A model generated the notes under the pieces. That model worked only from the letters and a program-made list of their open reading frames with translations. It made no database searches and was not told the origin of the DNA. Below, one piece after another: positions 2,076-62,798 of a stretch of 64,000 nt of DNA. Source of the stretch: Candidatus Nanoarchaeia archaeon (lineage in GTDB: Archaea > Nanobdellota > Nanobdellia > Jingweiarchaeales > Jingweiarchaeaceae); contig JAVZDD010000002.1 of the NCBI GenBank assembly GCA_038874075.1, positions 4,605 to 68,604 of the forward strand. The letters are read 5' to 3'. The stretch's first letter is position 1; every line of letters starts with the position of its first letter. Position numbers and translations under genes: made by a program.

Positions 2076-2618
2076 ATGTTTTCAATCTATGAAATTTTTG
2101 AAATATTTATGACTATAATAGCACTAGGTTACATATTTTCAGACTATGTTGTGAGATTACCAATTAGACACCTTCATAAAAATTTGAGAGATGAAATTCT
2201 ACTTGCATCGATCATTGTTTCACCTTCCATTATATTTCATGAATTTGCTCACAAATTCGTTGCAGTTTACTTTGGTGGCGCTGCTAATTTTCACGCAAAC
2301 TTTTATGGATTGCTACTTGGCATAGCAATGAAAGCGCTTGGATTACCAATCATATTTATACCAGCTTATGTTTCGGTTAGGGGCTTATACACCACACCAA
2401 TCGTTTTTGGATTGATTGCCATTTCAGGACCGCTAGTCAACTTTGCGATTTTTTTAATTCTTTCGCTATTGTTAAAATTTAATAAAATAACTGGGGATAT
2501 GTACTTCTATGCGCTTGTGATCAAGGAAATGAATAAACTCCTCTTCCTTTTTAACATGCTTCCAATACCAAGTACTGATGGTTTTAATTTCTATCAAGCG
2601 CTTTTGAATTCCATATAA
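2076..2618 (+). CDS. Site-2 protease-like (M50 family) membrane metalloprotease, paralog 1
   Basis: 180 aa polytopic protein; HExxH (HEFAHKF) and C-terminal NMLPIPSTDG (LDG-type) motif. Confidence 0.55.
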   Translation: MFSIYEIFEIFMTIIALGYIFSDYVVRLPIRHLHKNLRDEILLASIIVSPSIIFHEFAHKFVAVYFGGAANFHANFYGLLLGIAMKALGLPIIFIPAYVSVRGLYTTPIVFGLIAISGPLVNFAIFLILSLLLKFNKITGDMYFYALVIKEMNKLLFLFNMLPIPSTDGFNFYQALLNSI

Positions 2619-2648: not shown

Positions 2649-3344
2649 ATGCAGTTTGGACTTTCAAAGCAAGAGCTCAGAGACATCATCATTTCCGTTC
2701 TGGTCTTGGGATTTGTTTTTTCTTATAATAGATGGGAGACGATCAGTATAGGAATAAGAAATTTTTTTATTGCTGTTTTTGTGATTGGAATCGCATTCTT
2801 GGCGCATGAGCTAGCGCACAGGTATGTTGCAAGGAAATATGAATGTAAAGCAGAATATGTGATTTGGCCAGCCGGTCTATTGCTAGCGGTTGTATTAACA
2901 ATATTAAGTGGTGGAAATTTTATTTTCGCTGCCCCAGGCTTCGTAATGATTTCAACAGCATATGCAACGAGACTTGGTTTTCGCTATGTGAATCTGAGCA
3001 GAGAGGAAGTGGGAAAAATTGCACTTTCTGGTCCAATAACAGGTATCTTTTTGGCAATGCTATTCAAACTACTTCAACCATTATCAAAAGAGATATTTAC
3101 GTATGCGATATCAATAAACTTGTGGCTTGCAATTTTCAATCTTCTACCAATTCCTCCGCTTGATGGTAGTAAGGTTTTCGCCTGGAGCATAAGCATATGG
3201 GGATTTGCCATTGTAACTGCATCTGTACTTTTCATACTTTACACGATGCTCGAAATCAACTTCATCATTTCATTGATCATTCTCATCGCAGTTGGTCTAA
3301 TTTCATTTTTGTTGATGGAGACAAGAGTACCAACAATATTTTAG
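2649..3344 (+). CDS. Site-2 protease-like (M50 family) membrane metalloprotease, paralog 2
   Basis: 231 aa; HExxH (HELAHRY) and NLLPIPPLDG motif; same architecture as upstream neighbor. Track ORF 2864..3163 is an internal alternative frame. Confidence 0.6.
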   Translation: MQFGLSKQELRDIIISVLVLGFVFSYNRWETISIGIRNFFIAVFVIGIAFLAHELAHRYVARKYECKAEYVIWPAGLLLAVVLTILSGGNFIFAAPGFVMISTAYATRLGFRYVNLSREEVGKIALSGPITGIFLAMLFKLLQPLSKEIFTYAISINLWLAIFNLLPIPPLDGSKVFAWSISIWGFAIVTASVLFILYTMLEINFIISLIILIAVGLISFLLMETRVPTIF

Positions 3345-24250: not shown

Positions 24251-25048
24251 ATGAAAATAAAAATATTGGAAGAGAATAATGAAAGATTGAAGTTTATTAT
24301 CGATGGACTCAATATCGAGCTTTTAAATTCATTAAGAAGGATATGTATGTCGGAAGTTCCTGTGATGGCAATAAAAGAGGTTGAATTTAGAAAAAATTCG
24401 AGTGCTTTGTATGACGAAATAATTGCACATCGGCTTGGTTTGATTCCATTGAAAACAGATCTAAAAAGTTATAATTTTGTTAGTGAATGTTCGTGTAAAG
24501 GGAAGACATGTGCAAAGTGTTCAGTTAAACTTTCATTAAAAGAGGTTGGTCCAAAAACAGTTTATGCCAGTGATATGAAATCAACTGATCCTGAAATAAA
24601 ACCAGTTTTTCCAAAGATGCCAATTGTTAAACTTTTGGAAGGACAGGAACTTGAATTCACAGCAATCGCAATTCTTGGAAGGGGAATTGAACACGCTAAG
24701 TTTTCACCTTGTCTTGCCACATATCGCTACTATCCTAAAATTGAAATAGATTCGAAGGCTTGCAATCAGTGTAAAAAATGTGTTGATGCTTGTCCCAAGG
24801 GCATTCTAAGCATTTCTGGCAAAGAAATTGTAATAAACGAAAAAACACTATTGGATTGTGACCTTTGTAGAGCTTGTGAAGATGCTTGCAAACCTAAGGC
24901 AATTAAGCTGATAGATAATCCAAACAAAGTAATATTCGAAATTGAAAGCTGGGGTCAATTAAAGCCAAAAGAGATATTTATAAATGCGATAAGGATAATG
25001 GAAGAGAAACTCAAAGAATTTTCAAGCGCTATTAAAGAAAAGGCTTAA
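24251..25048 (+). CDS. rpoD: DNA-directed RNA polymerase subunit D (Rpo3) with 4Fe-4S motifs
   Basis: Conserved RpoD N-terminus (ELLNSLRRICMSEVPVMAI), ferredoxin-like Cys clusters CNQCKKCVDACP and CDLCRACEDAC. Confidence 0.85.
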   Translation: MKIKILEENNERLKFIIDGLNIELLNSLRRICMSEVPVMAIKEVEFRKNSSALYDEIIAHRLGLIPLKTDLKSYNFVSECSCKGKTCAKCSVKLSLKEVGPKTVYASDMKSTDPEIKPVFPKMPIVKLLEGQELEFTAIAILGRGIEHAKFSPCLATYRYYPKIEIDSKACNQCKKCVDACPKGILSISGKEIVINEKTLLDCDLCRACEDACKPKAIKLIDNPNKVIFEIESWGQLKPKEIFINAIRIMEEKLKEFSSAIKEKA

Positions 25049-25050
25049 TT

Positions 25051-25173
25051 GCGGGGGTAGCGAAGCTAGGTCCAACGCGCAGGACTTAAGTTTAATTACT
25101 TAAGTGATGAGGTCACAATGATATGAAATCCTGTGGCTTAGTGCCCGCGTGGGTTCAAATCCCACCCCCCGCA
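25051..25173 (+). tRNA. tRNA-Leu (anticodon TAA) with about 37-nt intron
   Basis: Acceptor GCGGGGG/CCCCCGC, discriminator A, long variable arm, T-arm GTGGG-TTCAAAT-CCCAC; anticodon stem CAGGA...TCCTG interrupted by about 37 nt (25091-25127 if at canonical 37/38 site). Confidence 0.65.
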
Positions 25174-28235: not shown

Positions 28236-28324
28236 TGCCTGGGGTGGGATTTGAACCCACGATTGCAGCGTATCTTAGCAAAGCTCATGAGCGCTGCGTT
28301 CTAGCCAGACTAAACTACCCAGGC
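28236..28324 (-). tRNA. tRNA-Met/Ile2 (anticodon CAT) with about 14-nt intron
   Basis: Reverse complement: acceptor GCCTGGG/CCCAGGC, anticodon stem CAGCG...CGCTG with loop CTCATG + 14-nt insert, T-arm GTGGG-TTCAAAT-CCCAC, discriminator A. Track ORF 28244..28459(+) is spurious. Confidence 0.65.
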
Positions 28325-28325
28325 A

Positions 28326-28808
28326 TTAAAGTTTGTATCCAATCTTTCTTAAAAAAACCTTCCTATCTTTTATCTCTTCCTCTCCTTCAATACCCTTGCT
28401 CTTCATACCATCCACAACACCAAGAATTCCCCTTCCTTGCTCTGTCTCAGCGATTATAATTTGTAATGGGTTCGCAGTTGCAGCAATTATATTACAAACC
28501 TCAGGTACTTCTTTTATTCTATTTAATACGTTTATTGGGTATCCATTTTTTAAGAAAATGATGAAACAATGTCCACATCCGATCTCCAGCGCTTTTTCTG
28601 CAGCTAATTTTCTAAGTTGTTCATCATTGCCACTATGTCTTACAAGGCAAGGACCGCTTGATTCACAGAAACCGATACCAAATTTTATGATGGGAGATGA
28701 ATTCACGATTGCTTCATGTAAATCCTCAACTGTTTTAATAAAATGACTCTGTCCAAGTATCAAATTACATCCTTCAGGTACTTCTATCTTAACAATTTTG
28801 ATTTCCAT
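28326..28808 (-). CDS. Conserved hypothetical protein
   Basis: 160 aa ORF ending 1 nt before the tRNA 5' end on the same strand. Confidence 0.45.
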
Positions 28809-58831: not shown

Positions 58832-59023
58832 CTTTTTCTTAAATAAAAAAATGAACCACAAAACAAAAGATTTAAATAAAATAAAAACCGAAAAATATAA
58901 ATATAAGCAAAGCTAAAAGAGGTAGTGATGTTGTGCTTAAAGTTGCTATTTAGAGGTAAGAATGCTCCGATTTCTGATGAGGAATTTAAAATTAAAATTT
59001 TGAAAAACTAGTTGAGAAAATGT

Positions 59024-59233
59024 GGGCCCGTAGCTCAGTCTGGAAGAGCATCTGTTGGAGGCAGAGAAAAATGTTTAATACATGTATTATTCCAATTACA
59101 CTTAAGATAAATTTCTTCTCTTCTCCATTCTTCAATCATTCTCTCATTCCTTCTCCAATTTCATTCTCAATTTCTCTGCCTTCAGATGTTGCTTTTAACC
59201 AGGTGGTCGCGGGTTCAAATCCCGTCGGGCCCA
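59024..59233 (+). tRNA. Intron-containing tRNA gene (about 136-nt intron); preferred reading tRNA-Lys(TTT), alternative tRNA-Ser(GGA)
   Basis: 5' half GGGCCCG-TA-GCTC-AGTCTGGAA-GAGC and 3' half CTTTTAA-CCAGG-TGGTC-GCGGG-TTCAAAT-CCCGT-CGGGCCC-A are separated by a CT-rich insert; 10-bp helix GGAGGCAGAG/CTCTGCCTTC inside insert. Track ORF 59020..59241 is spurious. Confidence 0.6.
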
Positions 59234-59245
59234 CTAGGTGAGAAA

Positions 59246-59491
59246 ATGGAAAAAAAGAAATTAGATTTATTTGCGCACATATGGGTGCCTAAGCACCGGA
59301 TAATGAGTGAAGAAGAAAAAGAAGAATTACTTAAAAAGTACAACATCACATTACAACAGCTCCCAAGAATTCTTGTGAATGATCCGATCTGTAAGGAGTT
59401 AAAGGCAAAGGTTGGAGATGTAATAGAAATCGAAAGAGATTCACCAACTGCTGGAAAAGCAATGTACTATCGTGTTGTTGTGCTTGAATAG
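59246..59491 (+). CDS. rpoH: DNA-directed RNA polymerase subunit H (Rpo5)
   Basis: [22 protein letters not shown]...[14 protein letters not shown]...[22 protein letters not shown]; SD AGGTGAG 4 nt upstream of ATG; track extension upstream is tRNA sequence. Confidence 0.9.
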
Positions 59492-59496
59492 GTGAA

Positions 59497-61002
59497 ATGA
59501 TGGATAAAGAAAAGATAATTTTGGATGCATATTTCAAGGATAGAAGCATTATCATTCACAACATCGAATCATTTAACAAGTTCATTGACAAGGGAATGCA
59601 AAGAGTTGTTGATGAAATTGGTGGGATCTCTTCTGATATTCTTCCAGAAGATATTCAAAGCTTGAAGATAAAGTTTGGTAAAATCACAGTAGAAAAACCA
59701 CACACACAAGAAGCAGAAGGCATCGCTGAAGAAATAACACCGATGCAAGCAAGATTGAGAAACATCACATATGAATCACCAATAATTTTGGAAATGGTGA
59801 TGGAGAAAGATGGTGTAGAGATAGAGAGAAACAACATACGCATTGGTAGTATACCTATTATGTTAAAATCAAAATATTGTGTGTTGAACGGAAAAACGGA
59901 GGAAGAGTTGATTGAATACGGTGAAGATCCAAATGACCCTGGTGGTTACTTTATCATAAATGGTACTGAAAGGATTATTGTCATTATTGAAGACCTAGCA
60001 CCGAATAAAGTCTTTACTGAGACAGATAAGACGGGCCCATTCCCAACAATTGCAAAAATATTCTCAGAAGACACACAATATAGAATTCCTCATGTGCTTG
60101 AGAGATCTAAGGACGGGATTATATACGTAAGTTTTGCAAGAGCAAATAAAGTACCATTTGCGATTTTGATGAAAGCGCTCGGGATCACAAATGAGAAAGC
60201 AATTGTGAGCGCAGTTTCTGATGATGAAAAACTTTTCAGTGACTTGTATATCAATCTTTATGAAACAAGTGAAATAAAGAGTGAGGAAGATGCGCTTGAT
60301 TTCATTGGAAGAAAACTTGGTGTTACATACTCAAAACCAAAAAGAGTTGAAAGAGCATGTGAAGTAATAGATAAATTCCTTTTCCCTCACATAGGTCATT
60401 CAGAATATGATCGACTTCCAAAGGCTTATTTCCTTGCAAAAACAATTAAGAAATTATTGCTTGTCTCCCAGGGAGTATTTCCAGAAGATGACAAGGATCA
60501 TTATTCAAATAAAAGATTAAGGCTCTGTGGAGACATGCTAGAAACATTGTTCAGGTTCTCCTTCAGAATGCTCGTCGGAGACATGAAATATAATTTAGAG
60601 AGATTATTAAAAAGAGGAAGACTTCCAACACTCCAAGCAATAACTAGAGCGCAATTATTAACATCAAGAATAAGAAGTGCATTGGCAACTGGAGAATGGA
60701 TTGGTGAAAGACATGGTATAAGTCAGCACATTGACCGATTGAATCATTTTGCCACGCTTTCACATCTAAGAAGAGTTGTTTCCTTACTCACCGCAAGTAG
60801 AGAAAATTTCGAAGCAAGAGATTTGCACCCAACGCAATGGGGAAGACTTTGTTCTCATGAAAGTCCAGAAGGTCCTGGCATTGGATTAAGAAAAAATCTT
60901 GCAATCACATGTGAGATTTCGACCGAATGTAGCATAAGCGATGAAGAATTGATTCAGCAGTTAAAAAATTTTGGTTTGAATGAGATTGGTGGGAAAAAAT
61001 GA
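59497..61002 (+). CDS. rpoB2: DNA-directed RNA polymerase subunit B'' (N-terminal half of split Rpo2)
   Basis: 501 aa with conserved RpoB N-terminal blocks (GGYFIINGTERIIV, HLRRV); start overlaps following gene. Confidence 0.9.
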   Translation: MMDKEKIILDAYFKDRSIIIHNIESFNKFIDKGMQRVVDEIGGISSDILPEDIQSLKIKFGKITVEKPHTQEAEGIAEEITPMQARLRNITYESPIILEMVMEKDGVEIERNNIRIGSIPIMLKSKYCVLNGKTEEELIEYGEDPNDPGGYFIINGTERIIVIIEDLAPNKVFTETDKTGPFPTIAKIFSEDTQYRIPHVLERSKDGIIYVSFARANKVPFAILMKALGITNEKAIVSAVSDDEKLFSDLYINLYETSEIKSEEDALDFIGRKLGVTYSKPKRVERACEVIDKFLFPHIGHSEYDRLPKAYFLAKTIKKLLLVSQGVFPEDDKDHYSNKRLRLCGDMLETLFRFSFRMLVGDMKYNLERLLKRGRLPTLQAITRAQLLTSRIRSALATGEWIGERHGISQHIDRLNHFATLSHLRRVVSLLTASRENFEARDLHPTQWGRLCSHESPEGPGIGLRKNLAITCEISTECSISDEELIQQLKNFGLNEIGGKK

Positions 61003-62798
61003 GTGATGTTTTTTTAAATGGTAAGTTTGTTGGAGAAGTAAAAGAACCAGAAAAGTTTGTTCAGAAAATAAGAGAAAACAGGAGAAACGGTGTCTTACCA
61101 AATGAAATAAATGTTTCTTACCATGAAGAGCGAGATGAAGTTTACATAAGCACCGAAAAGGGGAGAGCAAGGAGACCGCTTATTGTTGTTGAAAATGGAA
61201 AGCCAAAATTAACAAAGGAGCACCTTGAAAAATTACAAAAAGGAGAGATCAGATGGTCTGACTTGGTTAAGGAAGGCGTGATTGAATATTTGGATGCAGA
61301 TGAGGAGGAAAATTGTTATATTGCAATTAACGAAAATGAATTGACAAAGGAACATACTCATCTTGAAATTTCACCGCTTGTAATCCTTGGTTCTCAAGCA
61401 GCGATGATACCCTACGCTGAGCACAATCTAAGTGTAAGGATCCTCATTGGTGCTAAAGTAATAAAGCAAAGTTTGGGTATATATGCTGCAAATTTCTTAC
61501 TTAGAATGGATACTGATTCCTCAATTTTACACTACCCGCAACGTCCGATTGTTAAGACAAAAATCTATGACACAATAAATTATGATTCGCATCCAGCAGC
61601 TCAGAATATTGTTGTAGCAATCATGTCTTTTGAAGGATATAACATGGAAGATGCGATTATTATGAATAAAGCAAGTATAGAAAGGGGTCTTTACAGATCG
61701 ACATACTATAGACCATACAAAACAGAAGAACTAAGATACTCTGGTGGTCAAGTAGACAAGATAAAAATCCCTGAAAAGGATATCAAAGGCTATAGAACAG
61801 AAGAGGCATATCGTTATTTGGAAGAAGATGGTATTATATATCCCGAGGCAGAAGTGAAGGCTGGGGATGTATTGATTGGAAAAACATCACCACCAAGATT
61901 TTTAACCAGTTTAGAGGAATTCAAAGTAGGTCTGGAATCAAGAAGAGAGACATCCGTGCCTGTGAGACACGGTGAAAAAGGCATCGTTGAAAGTGTTATA
62001 TTGACGGAAAGCGAAGAAGGAAATAGATTTGTAAAGGTAAAAGTGAGAGATTTAAGAGTACCTGAACTTGGTGATAAGTTTGCAAATAGACACGGACAAA
62101 AAGGGGTTGTTGGCTTGATCGTACCTCAGGAGGACATGCCTTTTTCTGCTTCTGGTGTGATTCCCGATATCATTTTCTCACCACATTCAATTCCATCAAG
62201 GATGACTGTGGGACACTTGATTGAATTAATTGGTGGAAAAGTTGGAGCACTGGGTGGAAAGTACATTGATGGTACTGCGTGGAGTGGGCAAGATGAATTC
62301 GAATTGAGAAAGCAGCTCAAGCAACTTGGATTTAGGGAAGATGGAAGTGAAACACTTTATGACGGTGCAACTGGCAAGAAATACAAAGCGAGGATATTCA
62401 TTGGAGAAATGTATTATTCCAAACTTAGACACATGGTTGCAAATAAGATACATGCAAGATCAAGAGGTCCTGTCCAACTTTTAACGAGACAGCCAACTGA
62501 AGGCAGAAGTAAGGAGGGAGGTCTCAGGTTAGGAGAAATGGAAAAAGATTGTTTTGTTGCGCATGGTGCAAGTTTACTCCTAAAAGAAAGATTTGATTCT
62601 GATAAGACGGTTGTACCAATCTGTAAGAAATGTGGCTTAGTCGCAATCTACAATAAGTACCGAGACAAAGGAAGATGTCCTGTTTGTGGTGAAGATGCTC
62701 CAATTGTTTTCATCGAAATGAGTTATGCATTCAAATTGCTGTTAGATGAACTGAAAAGCTTGTGTATTTATCCAAAATTGATTGTGAGGTTTAAATAG
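60999..62798 (+). CDS. rpoB1: DNA-directed RNA polymerase subunit B' (C-terminal half of split Rpo2)
   Basis: 599 aa with RpoB C-terminal blocks (NRHGQKGV, GEMEKDCFVAHGA) and C-terminal zinc ribbon CKKCG...CPVCG. Confidence 0.9.
   Translation: MSDVFLNGKFVGEVKEPEKFVQKIRENRRNGVLPNEINVSYHEERDEVYISTEKGRARRPLIVVENGKPKLTKEHLEKLQKGEIRWSDLVKEGVIEYLDADEEENCYIAINENELTKEHTHLEISPLVILGSQAAMIPYAEHNLSVRILIGAKVIKQSLGIYAANFLLRMDTDSSILHYPQRPIVKTKIYDTINYDSHPAAQNIVVAIMSFEGYNMEDAIIMNKASIERGLYRSTYYRPYKTEELRYSGGQVDKIKIPEKDIKGYRTEEAYRYLEEDGIIYPEAEVKAGDVLIGKTSPPRFLTSLEEFKVGLESRRETSVPVRHGEKGIVESVILTESEEGNRFVKVKVRDLRVPELGDKFANRHGQKGVVGLIVPQEDMPFSASGVIPDIIFSPHSIPSRMTVGHLIELIGGKVGALGGKYIDGTAWSGQDEFELRKQLKQLGFREDGSETLYDGATGKKYKARIFIGEMYYSKLRHMVANKIHARSRGPVQLLTRQPTEGRSKEGGLRLGEMEKDCFVAHGASLLLKERFDSDKTVVPICKKCGLVAIYNKYRDKGRCPVCGEDAPIVFIEMSYAFKLLLDELKSLCIYPKLIVRFK

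What the first reader, a model, noticed from the sequence alone, without database searches (positions are those of the whole stretch)
59024..59233. tRNA gene split by an about 136-nt CT-rich intron immediately upstream of rpoH
Canonical tRNA 5' (acceptor and D-arm) and 3' (anticodon loop CTTTTAA, 3' anticodon stem, variable loop, T-arm, acceptor) halves are separated by about 136 nt. With a splice at 30/31 the mature product is a standard class I tRNA-Lys(UUU); a canonical 37/38 splice would instead give anticodon GGA with an abnormally long variable region. Exon 1 CATCTG pairs with intron-distal CAGATG, and the intron contains a 10-bp helix (GGAGGCAGAG/CTCTGCCTTC) and reiterated CATTCT motifs. 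The gene ends 12 nt before the rpoH start, implying co-transcription with the RNAP operon.
Basis: partly seen in the sequence, partly recalled or inferred. Interest (0 to 1): 0.7.

Follow-up and report, generated by a model that had tools for sequence, protein, structure and literature searches.

The report
Long non-canonical intron in tRNA-Lys
This is a real archaeal lysine tRNA gene interrupted after position 30 by an unusually long (136-nt) protein-spliced intron, sitting 12 nt upstream of the RNA polymerase operon; it is a well-known kind of feature that standard tRNA finders miss, so it is solid but not revolutionary.

Summary
Window 59024-59233 (+) is a tRNA-Lys(UUU) gene. Exon 1 is 59024-59054, the 136-nt intron is 59055-59190, and exon 2 is 59191-59233.

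A cloverleaf-plus-splice-motif scan gives one solution, a splice at 30/31. The junctions lie in a strict bulge-helix-bulge (hBHBh') motif with helices of 5, 4 and 14 bp. The spliced 74-mer aligns without gaps to intronless tRNA-Lys(UUU) genes at the same place in other archaea.

A relative (RpoH 89% identical) has the same intron. Its exons and helix-forming ends are conserved and its interior has diverged (about 45% identity). Six Woesearchaeota/Nanoarchaeia loci also interrupt this tRNA at 30/31, with a compensatory change in the central helix.

Position 30/31 is also where the split tRNA-Lys(CUU) genes of Nanoarchaeum and Staphylothermus join. The intron is longer than any in a 2011 survey of 90 genomes (maximum 129 nt). 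It has no C/D boxes, no oligo-T terminator and no above-background promoter, so one continuous transcript running into rpoH is most likely.

Verdict: a new member of a known kind, in a DPANN ('Parvarchaeota') MAG. Splicing, the endonuclease type and co-transcription remain untested.

The parts
58871..58878 (+). Perfect archaeal TATA consensus TTTAAATA, 153 nt upstream of the tRNA; candidate distal promoter of the tRNA-Lys/rpoH unit
   Evidence: It is the only 0-mismatch box in 58840-59245. It is conserved, together with the following AAAAACCGAAAA, in L084. The stretch from here to the tRNA is 72% identical between window and L084, against about 45% for the intron interior. Promoter function is inferred, not shown.
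58985..58992 (+). TATA-like box TTTAAAAT at -39/-32 from the mature tRNA 5' end; candidate proximal tRNA promoter
   Evidence: The free-standing tRNAs of the window have TATA-like boxes at about -28 to -39. This box has 2 mismatches to the consensus, which is background quality.
59024..59054 (+). Exon 1 of tRNA-Lys(UUU): acceptor 5' strand, D-arm, position 26, and anticodon-stem positions 27-30 (31 nt, with one extra D-loop nucleotide)
   Evidence: It is 31/31 identical in L084.
59044..59048 (+). BHB outer helix, 5' strand (AAGAG); pairs with CTTTT at 59192-59196
   Evidence: The pairing uses D-loop/D-stem nucleotides, so the BHB requires an alternative fold of the precursor.
59049..59052 (+). 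BHB central 4-bp helix, 5' strand (CATC, tRNA positions 25-28); pairs with GATG at 59185-59188
   Evidence: It is paired in all 7 distinct DPANN sequences, with a C-G<->U-A compensatory change at tRNA position 27.
59053..59055 (+). 5' bulge TG|T; predicted cleavage between 59054 and 59055
   Evidence: That cleavage falls after the second bulge nucleotide is the established BHB rule. I take it from general knowledge and it was not tested here.
59055..59190 (+). Intron, 136 nt (T 57, A 36, C 31, G 12), inserted between tRNA positions 30 and 31
   Evidence: It folds as a 15-bp closing stem around an open CU-rich loop (z = -4.1). It has no C/D boxes, no Rfam family, and no T-run longer than 3.
59056..59069 (+). 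BHB inner helix h', 5' strand (TGGAGGCAGAGAAA); pairs with 59171-59184
   Evidence: 14 bp including one G-U. 14/15 identical in L084.
59076..59089 (.). 14-nt perfect palindrome TAATACATGTATTA inside the intron
   Evidence: Self-hit. It is not conserved in L084, so it is probably without function.
59136..59174 (+). Weak degenerate 12-nt tandem array (consensus TCATTCTCAATT, 3.2 copies) that contains the CATTCT reiterations
   Evidence: score 41, below the usual threshold of 50. CATTCT is not enriched window-wide. It suggests the intron lengthened by slippage; this is inference.
59171..59184 (+). BHB inner helix h', 3' strand (TTTCTCTGCCTTCA)
   Evidence: The intron 3' end is 19/20 identical in L084.
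59185..59188 (+). BHB central helix, 3' strand (GATG)
59189..59191 (+). 3' bulge TT|G; predicted cleavage between 59190 and 59191
59191..59233 (+). Exon 2: position 31, anticodon loop CTTTTAA (anticodon TTT at 59194-59196), 3' anticodon stem, 5-nt variable loop, T-arm, acceptor 3' strand, discriminator A; CCA is not encoded
   Evidence: 42/43 identical in L084.
59234..59245 (+). 12-nt spacer CTAGGTGAGAAA with a Shine-Dalgarno-like GGTGA (59237-59241)
   Evidence: There is no T>=5 run from the tRNA 5' end until 61009.
59246..59491 (+). rpoH (RNA polymerase subunit H/Rpb5 C-terminal domain, 81 aa), followed by split rpoB'' (59497-61002) and rpoB' (60999-62798)
   Evidence: (PF01191; Rpb2 domains).

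Best explanation
Window 59024-59233 is a functional tRNA-Lys(UUU) gene of a DPANN archaeon (MAG labelled 'Candidatus Parvarchaeota'). It carries one 136-nt protein-spliced (bulge-helix-bulge) intron at the non-canonical position 30/31.

Proposed mechanism:
- The gene is transcribed as one precursor from a promoter upstream of the tRNA. The same transcript most likely continues into rpoH-rpoB''-rpoB'.
- In the precursor, D-loop/D-stem nucleotides pair with the anticodon loop (AAGAG/CTTTT). tRNA positions 25-28 pair with the intron 3' end (CATC/GATG). The two intron ends form a 14-bp helix.
- This creates a strict hBHBh' motif whose two 3-nt bulges (TG|T and TT|G) present the splice sites.
- The archaeal splicing endonuclease EndA cuts both bulges and an RtcB-type ligase joins the exons, probably also circularising the intron. 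RNase P trims the 5' end.
- A 3' endonuclease such as RNase Z would release the tRNA and leave an rpoH mRNA with a 12-nt leader carrying GGTGA.

The intron interior is an unconstrained, CU-rich, unstructured loop that avoids oligo-U terminators.

Shown here: the anatomy, the uniqueness of the solution, and conservation and covariation. Inferred: cleavage, ligation, the transcript boundaries and co-transcription.
For: 1. A unique solution: full cloverleaf (7/4/5/5 bp) and a strict BHB (central 4, outer 5, inner 14 bp) only for a 136-nt intron after position 30.
2. ARAGORN calls the spliced 74-mer tRNA-Lys(ttt). It aligns without gaps to intronless tRNA-Lys(UUU) genes that occupy the same place upstream of rpoH, 58-66/74 identical. 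The slid alternative junctions all need gaps.
3. A BHB at that junction arises in 3/20,000 intron shuffles, and in 0 with an inner helix of 4 bp or more.
4. L084 (RpoH 89% identical) has a 124-nt intron at the same site. Exons are 31/31 and 42/43 identical, helix-forming ends 14/15 and 19/20, and the interior 45/101 with an indel. That is the signature of constraint on the exons and the splice motif only.
5. Six Woesearchaeota/Nanoarchaeia loci interrupt the rpoH-linked tRNA-Lys(UUU) at 30/31, plus a second intron at 37/38. The central helix is paired in 7/7 distinct sequences, with C-G<->U-A and C-G->U-G changes. Pairing is 80% in register against 55% or less when slid.
6. The locus is identical in independent assemblies and Logan reads.
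7. Two other tRNAs in the window have BHB-like introns at 37/38, so the organism splices tRNAs.
8. For one continuous transcript: the intron is 42% T but its longest T-run is 3 (4.8% of shuffles; 66% of shuffles have T>=5). There is no T>=5 run before 61009, whereas 4 of the 6 other tRNAs have one in their trailer.
9. TATA-like boxes in the intron are at background density and quality.
10. tRNA-to-rpoH spacers of 1-33 nt recur in many archaea. Other tRNAs in this window abut ORFs within 1-2 nt.
Against: - There are no RNA data, so neither splicing nor the junction has been observed.
- EndA and RtcB are not encoded in the window (Pfam scans of 50 ORFs). The enzyme type is therefore unknown.
- The BHB needs the D-stem to unfold. 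Four slid BHB registers have near-equal computed energies: -41.2 to -46.0 kcal/mol, with the correct register at -44.1 and the tRNA-body fold at -44.4. Thermodynamics alone does not pick the productive register, and the unconstrained MFE (-62.0) does not show a BHB.
- L084 has a U29-C41 mismatch in the anticodon stem. That contig has only 1.5x coverage.
- Whether the genome has another tRNA-Lys(UUU) could not be checked.
- Weak (2-mismatch) TATA-like boxes do exist in the 5' half of the intron.
Confidence: 0.85

Rival explanations
1. Adjacent split tRNA halves. [quoted passage not shown] They anneal through the 14-bp helix and are trans-spliced, as shown for Aeropyrum pernix tRNA-Asp. The internal promoter could at the same time be the rpoH operon promoter.
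For: [quoted passage not shown] AT-rich TATA-like 8-mers with 2 mismatches occur at 59073, 59075 and 59102.
Against: The boxes in the intron are no better or denser than background (2.6 per 100 nt) and are not positionally conserved in L084. None lies 45-55 nt upstream of the intron 3' end, where the A. pernix promoter placement would predict one. The intron has no oligo-T run to terminate a 5'-half transcript, and that absence is itself unlikely by chance at 4.8%. A cis precursor must therefore be made anyway.
Confidence: 0.08
2. A tRNA-Lys pseudogene that was broken by an insertion and is no longer used.
For: Standard tRNA finders do not call it. The presence of another tRNA-Lys(UUU) in the genome could not be excluded.
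Against: The insertion is flanked by an exact BHB at the only junction that restores a perfect cloverleaf. In L084 the exons and BHB-forming ends are conserved while the interior has decayed to about 45% identity. The same interruption site with a compensatory change is kept in six other lineages. The locus also holds the conserved syntenic position of tRNA-Lys(UUU) before rpoH.
Confidence: 0.04
3. A tRNA-Ser(GGA) with a 121-nt intron at the canonical 37/38 position, as ARAGORN reports when introns are allowed.
For: ARAGORN -i output 'tRNA-Ser (gga) i(38,121)'.
Against: No BHB exists at those junctions, and my cloverleaf scan, which allowed long variable arms, does not return this model. The exons are 58-66/74 identical, without gaps, to tRNA-Lys(UUU) orthologues. 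ARAGORN's intron model only allows anticodon-loop introns and was shown to be permissive.
Confidence: 0.01
4. A self-splicing (group I or group II) intron, or a mobile-element insertion, in the tRNA.
For: Group I introns do occur in bacterial tRNA genes, including those of ultrasmall Patescibacteria (PMC13011429, listed).
Against: At 136 nt it is too short. It is mostly an unstructured CU-rich loop. No Rfam intron family matches even at E <= 10. No copy or similar sequence exists elsewhere in the window. The host is an archaeon with other BHB introns.
Confidence: 0.01

Closest known systems
Archaeal BHB-type tRNA introns at non-canonical positions (catalogued with SPLITS/tRNAscan-SE; reviewed in PMC4033280 and PMC4090602)
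   Same: The intron interrupts a tRNA outside 37/38. The splice sites lie in two 3-nt bulges separated by a 4-bp helix (hBHBh'), and forming the motif needs an alternative fold of the precursor. Standard finders miss it.
   Different: Length: 136 nt, against a published range of 11-129 nt (median 15) for all archaeal tRNA introns and 14-36 nt for tRNA-Lys(UUU) in 90 genomes (PMC3218864 main text and Table S1). The host is a DPANN MAG rather than a crenarchaeon.
Trans-spliced split tRNA-Lys(CUU) of Nanoarchaeum equitans and Staphylothermus marinus/hellenicus (PMC3218864)
   Same: Same isoacceptor family, same join position 30/31, and a canonical hBHBh' motif followed by a long helix (13 nt there, 14 bp here). 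Exon sizes of 31 and 43 nt are identical to the 'mature' sizes listed for Staphylothermus.
   Different: Here the two halves are 136 nt apart on one strand, with no terminator between them, so the arrangement is most likely cis. The anticodon is UUU, not CUU. The gene is linked to rpoH.
Aeropyrum pernix tRNA-Asp(GUC) adjacent split halves (the former '121-nt intron')
   Same: An intervening sequence over 100 nt without a C/D-box sRNA, an hBHBh' motif plus a 14-bp stem, and both halves on the same strand.
   Different: A. pernix has a strong BRE/TATA in the middle of the spacer, and northern blots show separate halves. Here there is no above-background promoter signal, oligo-T runs are avoided, and the position is 30/31 rather than 37/38.
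Long tRNA-Trp introns that carry a C/D-box sRNA (Haloferax type)
   Same: A BHB intron of about 100 nt or more.
   Different: There is no C box (RUGAUGA, up to 1 mismatch) or D box (CUGA) in the window or L084 intron. The interior is not conserved.
Disrupted tRNA genes of DPANN archaea and their EndA variants (epsilon2 in ARMAN-2; alpha4 with the L3 loop in other DPANN; PMC3239211, PMC5829648)
   Same: A DPANN host. Three of the seven tRNA genes in 64 kb carry introns. It is a hidden tRNA of the kind those authors predicted remains to be found.
   Different: The motif here is strict, not relaxed (hBH/HBh'), so it does not by itself require a broad-specificity enzyme. The EndA of this MAG was not found in the window.

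Membership tests
Archaeal protein-spliced (BHB) tRNA intron | Removing the intervening sequence restores a complete tRNA cloverleaf with a normal anticodon arm | tested here: met
   The 74-nt product has 7/4/5/5-bp stems, loop CTTTTAA and a 5-nt variable loop. It aligns without gaps to intronless orthologues.
Archaeal protein-spliced (BHB) tRNA intron | Both splice sites lie in 3-nt bulges on opposite strands, separated by a 4-bp helix and flanked by helices (hBHBh') | tested here: met
   AAGAG-CATC-[TG|T]-TGGAGGCAGAGAAA ... TTTCTCTGCCTTCA-GATG-[TT|G]-CTTTT. This arises in 3/20,000 shuffles. Caveat: slid registers have similar energy.
Archaeal protein-spliced (BHB) tRNA intron | The motif is maintained in evolution while the intron interior is free to vary | tested here: met
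   L084: helix-forming ends 33/35 identical, interior 45/101. Across 7 distinct sequences the central helix is 100% paired, with one compensatory and one wobble change.
Archaeal protein-spliced (BHB) tRNA intron | Cleavage by the splicing endonuclease EndA and ligation by RtcB; the spliced tRNA is detectable | not testable with these tools
   There are no RNA data. No PF01974/PF02778 (EndA) or RtcB hit among the 50 window ORFs scanned.
Split (trans-spliced) tRNA gene | The halves are separate transcription units: a promoter in front of the 3' half and termination after the 5' half | tested here: not met
   Only background-quality TATA-like boxes occur in the spacer, and they are not conserved in L084. 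No T-run longer than 3 lies between the halves. A sequence-only test cannot fully exclude a weak internal start.
Split (trans-spliced) tRNA gene | Join site with a BHB followed by a long complementary helix | tested here: met
   A 14-bp inner helix at join position 30/31, as in the N. equitans and Staphylothermus tRNA-Lys. This feature is shared with cis introns, so it does not discriminate between the two.
C/D-box sRNA-bearing tRNA intron | C (RUGAUGA) and D (CUGA) boxes with guide sequences inside the intron | tested here: not met
   No box in either the window or the L084 intron. No snoRNA family above noise.
Group I / group II self-splicing intron | A conserved catalytic core detectable by a covariance model; size of about 200 nt or more | tested here: not met
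   The intron is 136 nt. There is no Rfam hit at gathering score or at E <= 10. The fold is one stem plus an open loop.

The most novel reading that the evidence does not exclude
The 30/31 interruption of tRNA-Lys is an old, shared trait of the Nanoarchaeota-related DPANN lineages: Parvarchaeota-labelled MAGs, Woesearchaeota, Nanoarchaeia, and N. equitans in split form. On this reading, the unusually long cis intron with its 14-bp clamp helix is the living intermediate from which trans-spliced split tRNA-Lys genes arise. Its fixed position directly in front of rpoH would mean that tRNA processing (RNase Z and possibly splicing) creates the 5' end of the RNA polymerase operon mRNA, coupling polymerase expression to tRNA maturation.
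Probability: 0.25. Interest if true: 0.55.

Novelty: new member of a known kind. Interest (0 to 1): 0.38.

Why it matters
There are four reasons it matters, none of them large.

1. Annotation. tRNA-Lys(UUU) decodes AAA, a very frequent codon in a 34% GC genome. ARAGORN and Rfam both miss the gene here, so genome-completeness and tRNA-set estimates for DPANN MAGs are affected. Kaneta et al. 2018 (PMC5829648) explicitly expected such hidden disrupted tRNAs.

2. Size. At 136 nt without a C/D-box sRNA, it exceeds every tRNA intron in the 2011 survey of 90 genomes. In that survey, the only intron over 100 nt outside tRNA-Trp turned out to be a split gene.

3. tRNA gene evolution. Position 30/31 in tRNA-Lys is now seen as a cis intron in several DPANN lineages and as a split site in N. 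equitans and Staphylothermus. This supports a recurrent or inherited hot spot and the route from intron to split gene.

4. Gene expression. The widespread linkage of tRNA-Lys (or tRNA-Asp) to rpoH, with spacers of 1-33 nt, points to a conserved tRNA-mRNA co-transcript for the archaeal RNA polymerase operon. I did not find this described in the searchable literature.

Tried and rejected
- **Blind junction enumeration with ARAGORN as judge.** ARAGORN accepted far too many junctions, so I replaced it with a strict cloverleaf + BHB scan.
- **C/D-box or k-turn idea** for the conserved 'GGTGAA' / 'GATGATGA' at the 3' end of the Woesearchaeota introns (note). It is fully explained as the BHB complement of tRNA positions 25-28 plus the 2-nt bulge. 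No C/D boxes occur in the window or L084 introns.
- **The CU-rich intron as a cis-antisense masking the purine-rich rpoH ribosome-binding site**, prompted by a weak miRNA-like Rfam hit. Duplex energy of -16.6 kcal/mol equals the mean of dinucleotide shuffles (p = 0.42; L084 p = 0.50), and many other genes' start regions pair better. Rejected.
- **Intron as a repeated or mobile sequence.** There is no similar copy in the window.
- **A hammerhead-like reading of CTGATGAGGAA...GAAA upstream of the tRNA.** Stem III cannot form and there is no Rfam hit. Dropped.
- **A 27-aa ORF (58928-59011) in the conserved leader.** All 9 differences from L084 are non-synonymous or change the stop codon, so it is probably not coding.
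- **Searching for EndA/RtcB in the window.** Absent.
- **Metagenome scan with RpoB''.** It gave only one locus, which is intronless.
- **Four further RpoH-anchored contigs.** These added no tRNA-Lys intron.
- **Nanopusillus locus L083.** No tRNA half lies next to rpoH.
Full report
**1. What is in the sequence**

- A tRNA 5' part, GGGCCCG-TA-GCTC-AGTCTGGAA-GAGC-A-TCTG, occupies 59024-59054.
- A tRNA 3' part, G-CTTTTAA-CCAGG-TGGTC-GCGGG-TTCAAAT-CCCGT-CGGGCCC-A, occupies 59191-59233.
- The 136 nt between them are T-rich and G-poor (T 57, A 36, C 31, G 12).
- rpoH starts at 59246, 12 nt after the discriminator base, preceded by GGTGA. Split rpoB''/rpoB' genes follow.

ARAGORN with default settings and Rfam at gathering threshold find six other tRNAs in the window but not this one. 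A permissive Rfam search of 58900-59300 returns only noise. ARAGORN calls the 30/31-spliced 74-mer tRNA-Lys(ttt).

**2. Is the 30/31 splice the right one, and is it more than chance?**

I wrote a scanner that requires two things. The first is a full class I or class II cloverleaf after removal of one intervening sequence. The second is a strict bulge-helix-bulge motif at the junctions: a 4-bp central helix, two 3-nt bulges cut after their second nucleotide, and flanking helices.

For this locus there is one solution:
- Exon 1 ends at tRNA position 30 and the intron is 136 nt.
- The stems are 7/4/5/5 bp and the anticodon loop is CTTTTAA.
- The BHB reads AAGAG-CATC-[TG|T]-TGGAGGCAGAGAAA ... TTTCTCTGCCTTCA-GATG-[TT|G]-CTTTT, with an outer helix of 5 bp, a central helix of 4 bp and an inner helix of 14 bp.

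Run over the whole window on both strands, the scan finds no other hidden interrupted tRNA. Shuffling the intron produces a BHB at the cloverleaf-compatible junction in 3 of 20,000 trials, and never with an inner helix of 4 bp or more.

There is one caveat. Because the outer and inner helices share one register and the central helix could extend to 7 bp, four slid BHBs (a = 30-33) can be drawn. Their computed energies are within 5 kcal/mol of each other. The productive register scores -44.1, the others -41.2 to -46.0, and the tRNA-body fold -44.4. Only the 136-nt version gives a 5-bp anticodon stem with a 7-nt loop. Only that product aligns without gaps to intronless orthologues (58-66 of 74 identical), whereas the slid versions need 2-5 gap positions.

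**3. Source organism and comparison**

The RpoH protein is found on nine contigs, including GCA_025920685.1 (JAPDLL010000002.1). NCBI labels the protein 'Candidatus Parvarchaeota archaeon', a DPANN lineage. The tRNA region is identical in three of these contigs.

A relative with 89% identical RpoH (L084) carries a 124-nt intron at the same position.
- The exons are 31/31 and 42/43 identical.
- The helix-forming intron ends are 14/15 and 19/20 identical.
- The 101-nt interior is only 45/101 identical and carries a 12-nt indel.

This is the pattern expected when only the exons and the splice motif are under selection. More distant relatives (L085, RpoH 68%; L086, RpoB'' 63%) have an intronless tRNA-Lys(UUU) before rpoH. 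The intron is therefore lineage-specific.

**4. A wider pattern**

I fetched 80 rpoH loci from one-genome-per-species archaeal genomes. A tRNA-Lys(UUU) directly upstream of rpoH, often preceded by tRNA-Asp, turns up in Methanosarcinales, Methanocellales, Methanomicrobiales, Thermoplasmatota, Woesearchaeota, Nanoarchaeia and others. A strict pattern finds it in at least 22 of the 80 loci, and in 10 of those the spacer is 17-33 nt. In L085 the spacer is 1 nt.

This tRNA is an intron hot spot:
- Canonical 37/38 introns of 16-99 nt occur in several lineages.
- D-loop introns occur in L019, L044 and L061.
- L020 has three interruptions.

Most relevant here, six Woesearchaeota/Nanoarchaeia loci (L021, L022, L023, L025, L030, L069) each give a unique two-intron solution. 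Intron 1 lies after position 30 (16-67 nt). A 7-nt micro-exon covers positions 31-37. Intron 2 lies at 37/38 (12-21 nt).

I aligned the splice cores of these six with the window and L084.
- The central helix is paired in all 7 distinct sequences.
- It shows a compensatory C-G<->U-A change at tRNA position 27 and a C-G->U-G change at position 28.
- 80% of cells pair in register, against 55% or less when the 3' partners are slid.

**5. Relation to the literature**

Chan et al. 2011 (PMC3218864) report that the trans-spliced split tRNA-Lys(CUU) genes of Nanoarchaeum equitans and of Staphylothermus join at exactly 30/31. Those junctions have a canonical hBHBh' motif followed by a 13-nt helix, and the Staphylothermus halves have mature sizes of 31 and 43 nt. 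The window locus has the same architecture, but in cis.

The same paper states that archaeal tRNA introns range from 11 to 129 nt with a median of 15. Apart from tRNA-Trp introns that carry a C/D-box sRNA, only one exceeded 100 nt. That one, A. pernix tRNA-Asp at 121 nt, proved to be two adjacent, separately transcribed halves. Its Table S1 gives 14-36 nt for tRNA-Lys(UUU) introns. The 136-nt intron here is thus exceptionally long by that survey.

Fujishima et al. 2011 (PMC3239211) and Kaneta et al. 2018 (PMC5829648) document disrupted tRNA genes and diverse EndA types in DPANN. The 2018 paper expects further undetected disrupted tRNAs there. Non-canonical BHB introns in DPANN are therefore an established kind of feature.

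**6. Cis intron or adjacent split halves?**

Given the A. pernix precedent I tested this rival explicitly.
- Neither the window nor the L084 intron has a C box or a D box.
- TATA-like 8-mers inside the introns all have 2 mismatches. They occur at background density (2.6 per 100 nt) and are not positionally conserved.
- The only perfect TATA box (TTTAAATA, 58871-58878) lies 153 nt upstream of the tRNA. It is conserved in L084.
- The intron is 42% T but has no T-run longer than 3. Two-thirds of composition-matched shuffles contain a T>=5 run, and only 4.8% are as run-free.
- No T>=5 run occurs from the tRNA 5' end until 61009. Four of the six other tRNAs in the window have one in their trailer.

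A transcript started upstream of the tRNA should therefore read through the intron and on into rpoH. The avoidance of oligo-T also gives a simple reason for the 'CT-rich' look, because the T-runs are broken by C. I put the split-halves rival at about 8%.

**7. The intron interior**

The intron folds as a 15-bp closing stem (z = -4.1 against shuffles) around an open loop. The hexamer is not enriched in the window. No similar sequence exists elsewhere in the window.

I tested whether the CU-rich loop might mask the purine-rich rpoH start region. Shuffles pair equally well (p = 0.42 and 0.50), so I rejected that idea. The interior is best seen as unconstrained spacer, possibly lengthened by slippage. 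The slippage origin is inference.

**8. Context**

Three of the seven tRNA genes in this 64-kb window have introns.
- tRNA-Leu(UAA) at 25051-25173 has a 37-nt intron at 37/38.
- tRNA-Met(CAU) at 28236-28324 (- strand) has a 14-nt intron at 37/38.
- Each of these two has a BHB-like motif with 3 of 4 central pairs.

tRNA-Leu starts 2 nt after the rpoD stop codon, and tRNA-Met starts 1 nt after the stop of an adenosine-kinase-family ORF. Tight tRNA-mRNA packing is therefore normal in this genome. Pfam scans of 50 window ORFs found no EndA or RtcB, so the endonuclease type could not be determined. Because the motif is strict, no special broad-specificity enzyme is implied.

**9. Verdict**

This is a functional-looking tRNA-Lys(UUU) gene with a strict-BHB intron at 30/31. 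It is a new member of a well-known class. Three things make it notable:
- its record-class length without an embedded sRNA;
- the coincidence of its position with the known split site of tRNA-Lys;
- its place in a widely conserved tRNA-rpoH arrangement.

Splicing, the exact junction, the enzyme and co-transcription are inferred and need RNA data.

Noticed in passing
L004-L083, upstream of rpoH (for example L014, L025, L034, L044, L061, L069; also L085 443-516): A tRNA-Lys(UUU), or in Aenigmarchaeota-like loci a tRNA-Asp, lies directly 5' of rpoH in many archaeal phyla, with spacers of 1-33 nt. I did not find this linkage described in the searchable literature. It suggests a conserved tRNA-mRNA co-transcript for the RNA polymerase operon. 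In L085 the tRNA ends 1 nt before the called ATG, which would give a leaderless mRNA after 3' processing.
   Followed up: partly
L021 517-633, L022 299-433, L023 460-565, L025 541-684, L030 491-643, L069 311-452 (coordinates within the 700-nt upstream slices): In Woesearchaeota/Nanoarchaeia, tRNA-Lys(UUU) genes have two introns (30/31 and 37/38) that leave a 7-nt micro-exon carrying the whole anticodon loop except position 38. ARAGORN mislabels them as Val, Phe, Tyr, Stop and so on.
   Followed up: yes
L020 (about 2340-2500), L019, L044, L061: L020 tRNA-Lys(UUU) appears to have three interruptions (near 30/31, near 37/38, and in the T-loop). L019 (Woesearchaeota) and L044/L061 (Methanosarcinales) have an intron in the D-loop of the same tRNA.
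   Followed up: partly
window 25051-25173 (+): tRNA-Leu(UAA) with a 37-nt intron at 37/38 and a BHB with 3 of 4 central pairs. It begins 2 nt after the stop codon of rpoD (24251-25048). Rfam finds it but ARAGORN with default settings does not.
   Followed up: partly
window 28236-28324 (-): tRNA-Met(CAU) with a 14-nt intron at 37/38. ARAGORN reports it as 'tRNA-??? (catg)'. After splicing the loop is CTCATGA, so position 37 is G, which is unusual for a CAU anticodon. The gene starts 1 nt after the stop of the adenosine-kinase-family ORF 28326-28808.
   Followed up: partly
window 58871-59023 (+): The stretch from a perfect, conserved TATA box (58871-58878) to the tRNA is 72% identical to L084, far more than the intron interior. 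It includes a near-invariant block TTGCTATTTAGAGGTAA..ATGCTCCGATTTCTGATGAGGAATT (about 58943-58986). A 27-aa ORF (58928-59011) with an SD-like AGAGGT lies here, but its differences from L084 are all non-synonymous. This could be a leader, an sRNA or a regulatory site. No Rfam match.
   Followed up: partly
window 59049-59058 and 59185-59192: The BHB can be drawn in four slid registers of nearly equal computed energy because the central helix could extend to 7 bp. The motif TGTTG occurs at both intron boundaries. How the endonuclease would pick the productive register is unclear.
   Followed up: partly
L087 about 1045-1117: In this relative (RpoH 71% identical over 85% of the query), the tRNA directly before rpoH is tRNA-Asp(GUC), apparently with a short D-loop insertion. 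It is preceded by what looks by eye like a 5S rRNA and by an intron-containing tRNA-Tyr. The RpoH gene call reads into the tRNA 3' half ('MTRVQIPS...').
   Followed up: no
window 2076-2618 and 2649-3344 (+): Two adjacent ORFs match the N-terminal and C-terminal parts of Peptidase_M50 (site-2 protease). This may be a split or frameshifted gene.
   Followed up: no
window 59020-59241 and 59186-59491 (+); L002 5790-5894 (-): Mechanical ORFs run through the tRNA and its intron. One assembly's gene caller placed a 34-aa gene antisense to the intron. These are very likely spurious calls caused by the unannotated tRNA.
   Followed up: no
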